A stretch of 64,000 nucleotides of DNA from assembly GCF_031769215.1 (NCBI RefSeq), contig NW_026782454.1, forward strand, positions 434,001 through 498,000. The letters are read 5' to 3'. Origin of the DNA: Ylistrum balloti. Lineage: Eukaryota. The position numbers are program-made. The first letter of the stretch is position 1. Each line of letters begins with the position of its first letter. Shown piece by piece: positions 45,001 to 64,000 of the stretch.

Positions 45001-48000
45001 CCATTTTTACTGAGGATGTTGGGCCTATTGACCTATTCAACCCTATTGTTTTTCGTCGCTGCCCGATATCCAATATGGCGGTTACGGGCGCCATCTTGAA
45101 TTTGCTTTCCGCTCATTATCTCAAGAACGACAACACCGGTGGTCACCATTTTCACTGAGGATGTTGGGCCTATGGACCTACACAACCCTATTGTTTTTCG
45201 TCGTCGCTCGATATCCAATATGGCGGTTACGGCCACCATCTTGAATTGGCTGTGGGGTATTGCCCGCGTTTGCGGAGCTATTTTTTAAAAATGAAAACAC
45301 GTTGGTATGAAATGCAAATATAAGGATTATTTATTTATTTATTTCGTTTTCTAATGTGCATATGAAGGATGTAGTTCCCAAGTTGTGACGCCGTCATCTA
45401 TTCAGACACACCCCACAAAACAGGTATTACAGTAACAATTTTACAGAGTAGTATCACATGAAGACGTTTCATAAACACGCACGATGAGCCATTTACTTCC
45501 TTTAACATACACAAGTAAACCTGGAACACCGTATTGCAAAGAACTTTAAGCTAGTGTTTCATAGAGTTTTAAACTTAGATGAAGACTGATAAAAAAATTC
45601 TGTCAGAACAACAAACATTTCATGAATGAAACACGTTTGTATTGTTGTAAAAACTTTAAATGTTTAAGTAAGAATTCACACTGTTCAGGTATATGATGTT
45701 TCTATCGCCGGATATCAACATCCCTTCATCCACAACCTATAGTATTTACATGTCGCAACTGTTTCGATCTTCAAGGGCTTATTTCCAATATCACTATTTT
45801 CATGCAAGATATATGCAATTGACAGAGAAAAAAAATCACATAACAAGTGGGTAGGCTGATAAAAATGATGCAGTGTTATGGTTGTCATAATGATAAGGAA
45901 GTGTTATGGTTGTCATAATGACCAGGAAGTGTTATGGTTGTCATAATGACGAGGAAGTTTTGTGGTTGTCATAATAACCAGGAAGTGTTATGGTTGTCAT
46001 AATGACCAGGAAGTGTTATGGTTGTCATAATGACCAGGAAGTTTTGTGGTTGTCATAATGACCAGGAAGTGTTATGATTGTCATAATGACCAGGAAGTGT
46101 TATGGTTGTCATAATGACCAGGAAGTTTTGTGGTTGTCATAATGACCAGGAAGTGTTATGATTGTCATAATGACCAGGAAGTTTTGTGGTTGTCATAATG
46201 ACGAGGAAGTTTTATGGTTGTCATAATGACGAGGAAGTTTTGTGGTTGTCATAATGACGAGGAAGTTTTGTGGTTGTCATAATAACCAGGAAGTGTTATG
46301 GTTGTCATAATGACCAGGAAGTTTTGTGGTTGTCATAATGACCAGGAAGTTTTATGGTTGTCATAATGACGAGGAAGTTTTGTGGTTGTCATAATGACCA
46401 GGAAGTTTTGTGGTTGTCATAATGACCAGGAAGTTTTGTGGTTGTCATAATGACGAGGAAGTTTTGTGGTTGTCATAATGACCAGGAAGTTTTATGGTTG
46501 TCATAATGACGAGGAAGTTTTGTGGTTGTCATAATGACCAGGAAGTTTTGTGGTTGTCATAATGACCAGGAAGTTTTGTGGTTGTCATAATAATGAGTTG
46601 TCATAATGACGAGGAAGTGTGGTTGTCATAATGACCAGGAAGTTGTCATAATGACGAGGAAGTTTTGTGGTTGTCATAATGACGAGGAAGTTTTGTGGTT
46701 GTCATAATGACCAGGAAGTTTTGTGGTTGTCATAATGACCAGGAAGTTTTGTGGTTGTCATAATGACCAGGAAGTTTTGTGGTTGTCATAATGACCAGGA
46801 AGTTTTGTGGTTGTCATAATGACGAGGAAGTTTTGTGGTTGTCATAATGACCAGGAAGTTTTGTAGTTGTCATAATGACGAGGAAGTTTTGTGGTTGTCA
46901 TAATGACCAGGTAGTTTTGTGGTTGTCATAATGACGAGGAAGTTTTGTGGTTGTCATAATGACGAGGAAGTTTTGTGGTTGTCATAATGACCAGGAAGTT
47001 TTGTGGTTGTCATAATGACGAGGAAGTTTTATAGTTGTCATAATGACCAGGAAGTTTTGTGGTTGTCATAATGACCAGGAAGTTTTGTGGTTGTCATAAT
47101 GACCAGGAAGTTTTATAGTTGTCATAATGACGAGGAAGTTTTATGGTTGTCATAATGACGAGGAAGTTTTGTGGTTGTCATAATGACCAGGAAGTTTTAT
47201 AGTTGTCATAATGACGAGGAAGTTTTATGGTTGTCATAATGACGAGGAAGTTTTGTGGTTGTCATAATGACGAGGAAGTTTTGTGGTTGTCATAATGACG
47301 AGGAAGTTTTGTGGTTGTCATAATGACGAGGAAGTTTTATGGTTGTCATAATGACGAGGAAGTTTTATGGTTGTCATAATGACCAGGAAGTTTTGTGGTT
47401 GTCATAATGACCAGGAAGTTTTGTGGTTGTCATAATGACGAGGAAGTTTTATGATTCCTTTTCTCTCTGATTTGAGAAGAACGTGATATCACTTACTTTG
47501 ATCGACCAAGGTTTACCTGGCGTGTGTCGTCGAAGAAGCAGGAGACGCTAACCCTTCCAGAACCCTGACTATTAACTGGCATACCAGGATACACTACTCA
47601 ACCATTAATGGAAGCCAACAGATAGTAAACACCATCATGAGCACCACTAGGAACATCACGTTGAACACGTCACCAGCTCGCCGTGACTCTGATTTCAGCC
47701 AAACTCCATGGTCAGTTTTTAGGAGCCTCCGTCTGATCAGCACTACAATGACCAATGTATTTAGGACCACCATCATCCCGATCATACCCATCCCGAGAAA
47801 GGCATAAAGGTAAGAAAACAGCTTACCACCGGCGTCTGTAGCAAACTGATTAAAGAAACACCAAGTTCCAGGAAACTGATGGACATTCTCGTTTATACCC
47901 ATTAAAGGTAGGCAAGCCAAGATGAACGAAAAATACATATCCCTGCCATTGTGATGTTAACACGACGTTTACCTAACACATTAGTGTAGAAAAATGGGAA

Positions 48001-63000: not shown

Positions 63001-64000
63001 TATTTAGGACCACCATCATCCCGACCATACCCATCCCGAGAGAGGCATAAAGGTAAGAAAACAGCTTACCACCGGCGTCTGTAGCAAACTGATTAAAGAA
63101 ACACCAAGTTCCTGGAAACTGATGGACATTCTCGTTTATACCCATTAAAGGCATGCAAGCCAGTACCAGTGCCAAGATCCCTAACGCTGCTATTGTAAAA
63201 CTCGCCCATCTTTTTCCTAACTTACTGGTGTAGAAAAACGGAAACCAAACCGCTAGAAAACGATCCAGAGACATTGCTGCAGCTAACATCGCTGACGTCA
63301 TTCCAGTAAAAATCAAAGTAAAAGACATAAAAGCGCACGAGATTTCTCCTCCGGTCCACGTCATGTTATTCACATAAGCGGAAATAGAGACCGGAAGTGG
63401 GCCTAAGAGACCCAAAAGGTCGGATAATGCGAGAGCTAGCACCAGCCGATAGAAAGCCCTCCATTTATGTCTTTGTGAAGTATGGATGAGAATGATCAAT
63501 GCAAGAATATTACCACTTCCTCCAAACAAAAGCATCATCGCAACCGGAAGTACAGGGAAATTCCTGCCAAGCTCTGGCGTTGTACAGTTGAAAGTACATG
63601 TCATGTTTATGGTATTCAAATGTAGAATATCACCAGTATTCATTGTTGTCATGGGCAACATTTCGTATTTCCTGAAAAAAAAAGAACAATTCTGCAGTTA
63701 GATCACAGACATGAGTTTGTTGTGAATTTGTGTAATTATGTTGTTTTGTACTCTCTCCTTATATTCCTGTTATGTTACACATTCTGTTTGCTGTTCCATT
63801 TTCAAGACAAAAATATTATTTCAATTGATAATTCTTTTCAAATGCTTTTTTAAGATAGTCATCACATTTCTGGAAAACTTAATTATTTTATGTATTAATC
63901 TGAACATGCAAAATAAAACTATTTTGACATCAGTTACAAAATGACGGCAGAAAATCTTATTCAAAGCATCTTCAGTGAAGCGATTAACATACCACAGAAA

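What the first reader, a model, noticed from the sequence alone, without database searches (positions are those of the whole stretch)
47603..63661. Patchwork gene conversion among three prostanoid receptors
Seen: A and B share ~250 bp with no difference (TM2 end to TM4) although their introns stop aligning within tens of bases. C is clearly diverged from B in the N-terminal half and in exon 2, but from ~63160 to ~62826 (ECL2-TM5-ICL3-TM6 plus 20 nt of intron) it differs at only ~11 of ~310 positions, with a sharp boundary at LAC(L/M)PLM. Inference: C is an old paralogue whose ligand-lid and G-protein-facing block was recently homogenised with B, giving chimeric receptors with shared ECL2 but different TM1-4 and TM7.
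Basis: partly seen in the sequence, partly recalled or inferred. Interest (0 to 1): 0.65.

Follow-up and report, generated by a model that had tools for sequence, protein, structure and literature searches.

The report
Gene conversion among scallop prostaglandin receptors
Three neighbouring copies of a scallop prostaglandin-receptor gene (two intact, one broken) have pasted pieces of their coding sequence into one another, a clean but ordinary example of gene conversion between duplicated genes.

Summary
The window is from the scallop Ylistrum balloti, not human. It carries three EP4-like prostanoid receptor copies: A (minus strand), B (plus) and C (minus).

- **A and B:** they share an exact 251-bp run (12 of 20000 permutations reach it).
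- **B and C:** they differ at 124 of 426 nt across TM1-TM4. From C 63151 to 62826 they differ at only 11 of 326 nt, including 0 of 20 intron nt. Both tract edges are sharp (12 of 30 vs 0 of 30; 0 of 30 vs 24 of 30).
- **Synonymous divergence (B-C):** 1.70 before the tract, 0.079 in it, 0.81 in exon 2.
- **Selection does not explain it:** the tract is less conserved between scallop genera than TM1-4. C shares 8 of 8 B-specific residues in the tract but 1 of 7 before it.

Non-allelic gene conversion is the best reading.

- A is a pseudogene, and its exon 2 lies at about 44.3-44.5 kb, outside the given range.
- The donor may have been A rather than B.
- C's age relative to scallop speciation is unresolved (AU tests).

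Misassembly could not be tested. This is a new member of a known kind, of modest interest.

The parts
52578..53387 (+). Copy B, main coding exon (ATG to end of TM6, 270 codons), intact
   Evidence: ORF and ATG/donor positions. Pfam 7tm_1 E 7e-35. Best solved-structure matches EP4 1e-34, IP, FP, TP, EP3, EP1, DP, EP2. 100% identical to P0001, named prostaglandin E2 receptor EP4 subtype-like [Ylistrum balloti].
56173..56520 (+). Copy B, last coding exon (TM7 and tail, stop included); intron 53388-56172 with GT..AG
   Evidence: Acceptor CAG|GTACGA and stop. Aligns to EP4 TM7, including the Arg and DPWIY.
62846..63671 (-). Copy C, main coding exon (intact). The first short coding exon of the database model P0005 is not in the window.
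   Evidence: Pfam 7tm_1 E 1e-30. 100% match to P0005 over the searched residues 1-172.
61473..61724 (-). Copy C, last coding exon (TM7 and tail, stop included); intron 61725-62845
   Evidence: B-C differ at 49 of 192 nt here, dS 0.81.
62826..63151 (-). Conversion tract in C: 306 exon nt (codons 169-270 in B numbering: ECL2, TM5, ICL3, TM6) plus 20 intron nt
   Evidence: 11 of 326 differences from B and 17 of 326 from A. Breakpoint found by maximum chi-square. dS 0.079. Helix map from the fold.
53082..53407 (+). Counterpart of the tract in B
47583..47908 (-). Counterpart of the tract in A
   Evidence: A-B 16 of 326, A-C 17 of 326 differences.
47603..48411 (-). Copy A, main coding exon. Pseudogene: a 1-bp deletion between 47929 and 47928 shifts the frame onto a stop at 47902-47904.
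   Evidence: Alignment. Split ORFs 47902..48450 and 47594..47956. tblastn hit in two frames. A-B dN/dS near 1: 0.016/0.010 and 0.046/0.036.
47934..48184 (-). 251-bp stretch of A identical to B 52805-53055 (mid TM2 to mid TM4)
   Evidence: Exact string identity. Permutation test 12 of 20000.
44295..44527 (-). Copy A, remnant of the last exon. A 25-bp deletion between 44440 and 44439 removes the DPWIY stretch of TM7; further deletions lie in the tail.
   Evidence: A-B 196 of 211 nt identical in the exon against 84 of 123 in the intron just upstream.
45872..47450 (.). 28-bp x 56 minisatellite filling much of A's intron (another array at 44812-45247)
   Evidence: Tandem Repeats Finder.
54121..55640 (.). 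34-bp x 44 minisatellite in B's intron
61784..62639 (.). 20-bp x 34 and 46-bp x 3.8 minisatellites that fill most of C's intron

Best explanation
The window holds a small cluster of EP4-like prostanoid receptor genes of the scallop Ylistrum balloti. A is a pseudogene on the minus strand, B is intact on the plus strand, and C is intact on the minus strand. A and B lie head to head, and B and C tail to tail.

What most likely happened is non-allelic (interlocus) gene conversion, in which a DNA break in one copy is repaired using a neighbouring copy as template.

1. One event, or a few, overwrote 326 bp of C with A/B-type sequence, from the end of TM4 to 20 nt into the intron. C now combines its own strongly diverged TM1-4, TM7 and tail with the ECL2 lid, TM5, ICL3 and TM6 of its neighbours.
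2. Conversion has also kept both exons of A and B 93-98% identical while their introns diverged beyond alignment and filled with different minisatellites. The most recent A-B exchange left 251 identical bases.

Shown here: the mosaic of divergence, including synonymous and intron sites; the breakpoints; the species-specific residues shared in the tract; the family assignment; and the lesions in A.

Inferred: the mechanism, the direction (into C), the order of events, and any functional consequence.
For: - **Divergence pattern:** B-C differ at 124 of 426 nt (TM1-4), 11 of 326 (tract) and 49 of 192 (exon 2). NG86 dS is 1.70, 0.079 and 0.81. Fisher test on synonymous counts, TM1-4 vs tract p = 8e-16, exon 2 vs tract p = 4e-7. 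The maximum chi-square breakpoint falls after B 53081, with 0 of 2000 permutations reaching it, also for third positions alone.
- **Intron included:** the tract covers 20 intron nt with 0 differences, followed by 24 of 30.
- **Not constraint:** across three other scallop genera the tract is less conserved (75-78 of 100-102) than TM1-4 (122-124 of 142), yet B-C match at 97 of 102.
- **Shared derived residues:** where the three orthologues agree and B differs, C has B's residue at 8 of 8 tract columns, 1 of 7 in TM1-4 and 2 of 5 in exon 2.
- **Segment trees:** A+B+C form a clade in the tract (support 81/79, and 74/80 without the longest outgroup). C sits on a 0.46 branch in TM1-4 and a branch of about 0 in the tract.
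- **Direction:** C departs from the orthologue consensus at 28 of 118 columns in TM1-4 but only 9 of 75 in the tract, much like B (7 of 118 and 8 of 75).
- **A-B:** dS is 0.010, 0.036 and 0.108 in the three exon segments, against 39 of 123 mismatches in the only alignable intron piece. The rest of the introns is unalignable and holds different satellites.
- **Precedent:** conversion of ECL2 and TM parts between the neighbouring GPCR genes CCR2 and CCR5 (PMC2880985, abstract and discussion passages).
Against: - No reads were available, so an assembly or polishing artefact is not excluded.
- Protein segment trees are weak. In TM1-4 an A+B+C clade is not rejected (p-AU 0.38), nor is a clade of A, B and the orthologues without C (p-AU 0.116). 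In the tract, excluding C costs 10.4 log-likelihood units but p-AU is only 0.08. Exon 2 is uninformative (p-AU 0.41 and 0.46). The age of C relative to speciation is therefore open.
- The direction rests on a rough comparison of rates between segments.
- With three sequences the donor (A or B) cannot be fixed.
- A search for short independent protein fragments spanning C's junction found none (0 of 83 candidates).
Confidence: 0.8

Rival explanations
1. Reverse mosaic. C began as a young duplicate of A/B, and the tract is its only original part. Its 5' half, most of its intron and exon 2 were later overwritten by, or recombined with, a divergent paralogue that is not in the window.
For: The pattern is symmetric in principle. 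C's TM1-4 has no close relative among the proteins found: 96-98 of 142 residues to B and to each of the three orthologues. AU tests do not place C.
Against: This needs two or more long replacements (over 500 bp upstream, and over 1.3 kb covering the intron and exon 2) instead of one 326-bp tract. No donor is seen: the only Ylistrum proteins returned for this subfamily were P0001 and P0005 (2 of 22 hits, 2 of 9), and the window holds only three copies.
Confidence: 0.07
2. Chimeric birth. C was created as a fusion by unequal crossing-over or template switching at the time of duplication, not by later conversion.
For: Sharp junctions. Repeat-rich surroundings that could favour rearrangement.
Against: The similar block is internal, with diverged sequence on both sides. 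That needs two junctions within 326 bp, which is operationally the same as a conversion tract. The reading frame and the GT donor are preserved exactly.
Confidence: 0.05
3. Assembly or polishing artefact. Reads from A or B were used to build or correct part of C, or part of A from B.
For: Near-identical paralogous stretches are where assemblers and polishers err. The 251-bp identity between A and B, and the 1-bp deletion in a T run in A, are the kind of thing polishing can create. No independent sequence of these genes was found: the clusters of P0001 and P0005 each hold 1 member from 1 contig, and no short fragments turned up.
Against: The tract still carries 11 B-C, 16 A-B and 17 A-C differences, so nothing is simply collapsed. 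Its edges abut sequence about 29-40% different, which short-read correction would not bridge. Both intact genes keep their frame and splice sites.
Confidence: 0.05
4. Selection alone. The ECL2-TM6 block is so constrained, even at silent sites, that old paralogues stayed alike.
For: TM6 and the PGTWCF part of ECL2 are highly conserved in the family (invariant columns P181, G182, W184, C185).
Against: Between genera the block is less conserved than TM1-4. dS falls more than 20-fold. 20 intron nt are included. C shares 8 of 8 lineage-specific B residues in the tract.
Confidence: 0.02

Closest known systems
Interlocus gene conversion between the neighbouring chemokine receptor genes CCR2 and CCR5 (and CCR1/CCR3) in mammals (PMC2880985; abstract and discussion passages read)
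   Same: Adjacent class A GPCR paralogues exchange partial tracts that cover transmembrane parts and extracellular loop 2, which makes paralogues within a species more alike than orthologues over those parts.
   Different: The CCR genes are vertebrate chemokine receptors, and the CCR tracts lie inside a single coding exon (recalled, not checked here). Here a mollusc prostanoid receptor cluster shows a tract that runs 20 nt into an intron, neighbours in inverted orientation, and a pseudogene taking part.
Concerted evolution of duplicated gene pairs and phylogenetic mosaicism among GPCRs (PMC2720389 and PMC2684142; only the search listing with the start of each abstract was seen)
   Same: Stretches of homogeneity between paralogues that are higher than between orthologues; mosaic gene trees along a receptor.
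   Different: Those are genome-wide surveys of human and mammalian genes. Nothing on molluscs or prostanoid receptors appeared in what I saw.
Vertebrate prostanoid receptors, closest EP4 (solved structures 7d7m, 5yhl, 8gcm)
   Same: Best sequence matches for both exons. The TM7 Arg and DPWIY align. PGTWCF in ECL2 and a predicted ECL2 hairpin. An intron at the end of TM6 (its position in vertebrate genes is recalled, not checked here).
   Different: Only about 24-31% identity to the vertebrate receptors found. The ligand and coupling of the scallop proteins are untested.
Conversion between a gene and its neighbouring pseudogene (CYP21A2/CYP21A1P type; recalled, no call)
   Same: A disabled copy (A) stays in sequence exchange with intact neighbours.
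   Different: No evidence here that a lesion of A has been copied into B or C. The 251-bp identical run stops 6 nt before A's frameshift.

Membership tests
Prostanoid receptors (class A GPCR) | Rhodopsin-type seven-helix receptor domain | tested here: met
   Pfam PF00001: E 7e-35 for B exon 1 and 1e-30 for C exon 1. Six helices are predicted in exon 1 and the seventh aligns in exon 2.
Prostanoid receptors (class A GPCR) | Closer to prostanoid receptors than to any other GPCR group | tested here: met
   The top 22 distinct solved sequences are all EP4, IP, FP, TP, EP3, EP1, DP or EP2 (E 1e-34 to 2e-14). The first other receptor scores 3e-11. All 12 matches of exon 2 are prostanoid receptors.
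Prostanoid receptors (class A GPCR) | TM7 arginine followed by DPW(I/V)Y (its role in binding the ligand carboxylate is recalled) | tested here: met
   B exon 2 aligns R and DPWIY with EP4. C has the same residues. A has lost DPWIY through a 25-bp deletion.
Prostanoid receptors (class A GPCR) | ECL2 hairpin with the PGTWCF motif | tested here: met
   P181, G182, W184 and C185 are invariant in 23 sequences. Strands 176-179 and 184-187 appear in the model.
Prostanoid receptors (class A GPCR) | Binds a prostaglandin and signals through a G protein | not testable with these tools
   No assay was possible. The names in the database are automatic.
Interlocus (non-allelic) gene conversion | Abrupt, significant change of divergence along paralogues, including silent sites | tested here: met
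   dS 1.70 / 0.079 / 0.81, and 0 of 2000 permutations reach the observed chi-square.
Interlocus (non-allelic) gene conversion | Paralogues within a species more alike than orthologues over the tract only | tested here: met
   Identity tables and shared derived residues: 8 of 8 in the tract against 1 of 7 upstream. A+B+C form a clade in the tract tree (81/79).
Interlocus (non-allelic) gene conversion | Statistically supported conflict between the trees of the tract and of the flanks | tested here: inconclusive
   AU tests: p 0.38 and 0.116 (TM1-4), 0.08 (tract), 0.41 and 0.46 (exon 2). The segments are short and only proteins of orthologues were available.
Interlocus (non-allelic) gene conversion | Non-reciprocal transfer with a known donor and acceptor | not testable with these tools
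   This needs outgroup nucleotide sequences or population data. The direction into C is inferred.
Interlocus (non-allelic) gene conversion | Pattern real in the genome, not made by assembly | not testable with these tools
   No reads. No independent copy of the junction was found.

The most novel reading that the evidence does not exclude
The exchange is not random. The block that forms the ligand lid and the G-protein-facing side (ECL2-TM5-ICL3-TM6) would be kept in common among the copies by repeated conversion that selection tolerates or favours, while TM1-4 and TM7 are free to diverge. This would give receptors with different pockets but one coupling module. The pseudogene A, which lies in direct orientation to C and shares derived ICL3 residues with it, would serve as a sequence reservoir or relay for the intact genes.
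Probability: 0.1. Interest if true: 0.5.

Novelty: new member of a known kind. Interest (0 to 1): 0.3.

Why it matters
- **For annotation and phylogeny:** trees of mollusc prostanoid receptors built on whole proteins will mix two histories for C, and positive-selection scans on this cluster would be misled.
- **For biology:** B and C are a natural domain swap. They share ECL2, TM5, ICL3 and TM6 (97 of 102 residues) and differ in TM1-4 (98 of 142) and TM7 with the tail (42 of 64). Comparing their ligand preference and coupling would show which half sets which property in an invertebrate prostanoid receptor, a group whose pharmacology is hardly known.
- **As a phenomenon:** conversion between neighbouring GPCR genes is well established, so the finding extends a known process to a new family and phylum rather than revealing a new one.

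I found no paper describing it. The search 'gene conversion' + 'prostanoid receptor' gave 1 unrelated paper. 'Ylistrum' + 'prostaglandin' gave 2 papers; I read passages of one (PMC11682238), which does not treat it, and saw only the listing for the other. 'gene conversion' + 'tandem' + 'GPCR' + 'bivalve' gave 0.

Tried and rejected
- **Segment protein trees with AU tests to date C relative to scallop speciation:** unresolved. I therefore do not claim that C predates the genera.
- **Search for short independent protein fragments across C's junction**: 83 candidates, none at E <= 1e-10, so there is no independent support for the assembly.
- **Search with C's first 172 residues for a C-type orthologue**: 9 proteins. 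None is closer than 69% except C's own model. Pecten P0013 (51%) is a partial model that lacks the tract region.
- **GC3 as a sign of biased conversion**: 0.44-0.48 in TM1-4 against 0.52-0.55 in the tract. The shift is small and untested, so I did not use it.
- **Further copies or fragments in the window**: none beyond A, B and C.
- **Selection alone and simple collapse** were considered and rejected, as set out under the rival explanations.
- **Not done:**
  - GENECONV and RDP are not installed; a maximum chi-square scan and permutations of my own were used instead.
  - No nucleotide trees with orthologues, because the only open contig collection (genome contigs) holds bacteria and archaea, so I did not scan it.
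  - Supplementary files of papers were not consulted.
- **** failed on a frame slip of mine and was repeated correctly.
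Full report
**Source and rules.** The window has no N and is not human. The translation of B's main exon is 100% identical to a database protein named prostaglandin E2 receptor EP4 subtype-like [Ylistrum balloti], a scallop, and C matches a second protein of the same species. The spliced models were handled exon by exon. Every search and the one fold used a single exon. Full-length database records were used as delivered and cut into segments by alignment column.

**Anatomy.** tblastn and blastn find three copies and no more.
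- B (+): coding exon 52578-53387, intron with GT..AG, last exon 56173-56520.
- C (-): coding exon 63671-62846, intron, last exon 61724-61473. The 18-residue first exon of its database model lies outside the window.

A is a pseudogene. A 1-bp deletion near 47929 leads to a stop at 47902-47904, a 25-bp deletion at 44440/44439 removes the DPWIY stretch of TM7, and the tail has further deletions. A-B dN/dS is about 1. A and B lie head to head, and B and C tail to tail.

**Family.** Pfam 7tm_1 matches both intact main exons. The 22 best solved-structure sequences are all prostanoid receptors, EP4 first at E 1e-34, with the first other GPCR at 3e-11. Exon 2 aligns to EP4 TM7 with the Arg and DPWIY. 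PGTWCF in ECL2 is invariant in a 23-sequence alignment.

An AlphaFold model of B exon 1 (mean pLDDT 77) gives TM1 36-63, TM2 67-95, TM3 103-137, TM4 148-167, an ECL2 hairpin at 176-187, TM5 194-232 and TM6 239-269.

**Checking the observation.**
- A and B are 96.4% identical over 863 bp and nowhere else except around exon 2.
- B 52805-53055 equals A 48184-47934 exactly, 251 bp. Such a run is reached in 12 of 20000 permutations, and in 72 of 20000 for the exon alone.
- B and C differ at 124 of 426 nt in codons 27-168, 11 of 326 nt in B 53082-53407 = C 63151-62826 (0 of 20 in the intron part), and 49 of 192 nt in exon 2.
- In 60-nt windows the B-C differences run 19, 17, 15, 19, 13, 14, 25, then 1, 0, 2, 7, 1, then 27 and 42.
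- The edges are 12 of 30 against 0 of 30, and 0 of 30 against 24 of 30.
- The maximum chi-square breakpoint falls after B 53081, the L/M codon of LAC(L/M)PLM, with 0 of 2000 permutations reaching it, for all sites or third positions only.

**Is it exchange or constraint?** NG86 dS for B-C is 1.70, 0.079 and 0.81 in the three segments. Fisher tests on synonymous counts give p = 8e-16 and 4e-7.

Proteins of three other scallop genera (P0002 Argopecten, P0003 Mizuhopecten, P0004 Pecten) show that the tract is the less conserved part between species. B matches them at 75-78 of 100-102 residues there, against 122-124 of 142 in TM1-4. B-C is 97 of 102 in the tract and 98 of 142 before it.

Where the three orthologues agree and B differs, C carries B's residue at 8 of 8 tract columns, 1 of 7 TM1-4 columns and 2 of 5 exon 2 columns. 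Constraint cannot produce shared lineage-specific residues, silent-site identity and 20 identical intron bases. Exchange can.

**Direction and age.** C departs from the orthologue consensus at 28 of 118 TM1-4 columns but only 9 of 75 tract columns. B departs at 7 of 118 and 8 of 75. The tract is therefore A/B-type, and C is the likely acceptor. This is an inference.

Segment trees give A+B+C as a clade in the tract (81/79, or 74/80 without P0014) and put C on a long branch (0.46) in TM1-4. AU tests do not decide where C belongs in TM1-4 (p 0.38 for A+B+C; p 0.116 for C excluded). They do not reject C's exclusion in the tract at 0.05 (p 0.08), and they are uninformative in exon 2. C's first 172 residues have no closer relative than 62-69% among the proteins found. 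'Old' is thus shown relative to the tract, not relative to speciation.

**A and B.** dS is 0.010 (codons 27-168), 0.036 (tract) and 0.108 (exon 2). The only alignable intron piece, before exon 2, has 39 mismatches in 123 columns plus 30 gap columns. The remaining introns do not align and carry different minisatellites: 28 bp x 56 in A, 34 bp x 44 in B, 20 bp x 34 in C. A 44-bp array starts 15 nt beyond the 5' edge of A-B homology. So A and B also look like older duplicates whose exons were homogenised, most recently over mid TM2 to mid TM4. The evidence for this is weaker than for C.

**Inside the tract.** Of 22 variable sites, 11 are unique to A, 6 to C and 5 to B. All 5 B-unique sites lie within 21 nt of ICL3 (B 53277-53297), with a post hoc probability of 0.002 given where the variable sites lie. 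At codons 236 and 240 B keeps the orthologue residue, while A and C share a derived one. The tract tree joins A and C (95/85; 85/86). The template for C may therefore have been A, or A and C exchanged a short patch later.

**Mechanism.** The best reading is break repair using a nearby paralogue as template, with tracts confined to exons because the introns offer no homology. The 326-bp length is within the usual range for such tracts (recalled). Rivals are a reverse mosaic, a chimeric origin at duplication, an assembly artefact, and selection alone. All are judged less likely, as set out in the rival explanations. The artefact could not be tested, because each protein cluster holds one sequence from one contig and no short fragments were found.

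**Comparison and novelty.** Partial conversion between neighbouring GPCR genes, including ECL2, is documented for CCR2/CCR5 and CCR1/CCR3 (PMC2880985, abstract and discussion passages). Broader surveys exist (PMC2720389 and PMC2684142, listing only).

I found no description for prostanoid receptors or for this scallop. One search gave 1 unrelated paper. One search gave 2 papers; I read passages of one, which does not treat it, and saw only the listing for the other. One search gave 0. One search gave 5 papers and one search gave 5, none on this topic judging from their listings.

The verdict is a real, clean case of a known process: a new member of a known kind, of modest interest.

Noticed in passing
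window 47902-47929 and 44295-44527: Copy A is a pseudogene. It has a 1-bp deletion in a T run that leads to a premature stop, a 25-bp deletion that removes the TM7 DPWIY motif, and further deletions in the tail. The 251-bp run identical to B stops 6 nt before the frameshift.
   Followed up: yes
window 53277-53297 (B), with counterparts in A and C: All 5 tract sites where B alone differs cluster in 21 nt of ICL3. A and C share derived residues at codons 236 and 240, which suggests an A-C exchange or an A-type template for C.
   Followed up: partly
window 56215-56222 (B exon 2) and the counterpart in C: B and C share two adjacent derived residues (LS in DRLSD, where three orthologues have VG) at the start of exon 2. 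This could be a second, very short exchanged patch or coincidence.
   Followed up: no
window 44812-45247, 45872-47450, 48463-49220, 54121-55640, 61784-62639: Each copy's intron, and A's upstream flank, is occupied by its own minisatellite array (periods 145, 28, 44, 34, and 46 and 20 bp). This accounts for much of the lack of intron alignment.
   Followed up: partly
window about 3700-37300 (e.g. 13208-14329, 15183-15834, 16174-17283, 18621-19780, 22607-23912, 26779-28064, 36341-37267): Long open frames on both strands with periodic translations indicate many more minisatellite arrays. No other receptor copy and no obvious gene was seen upstream of 44 kb.
   Followed up: no
window 57645-58115 and 58861-59273, 60004-60092: Downstream of B lie G-rich tetranucleotide runs inside a 214-bp duplicated unit, a 41-bp x 10 array and a (GA)44 microsatellite.
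   Followed up: no
protein P0013 (Pecten maximus), alignment: This partial paralogue model jumps from early TM4 straight to exon 2, so it lacks the region equivalent to the tract. It may be a mis-model or a decayed copy. It lies on a contig of the same length as P0004 and P0010.
   Followed up: no
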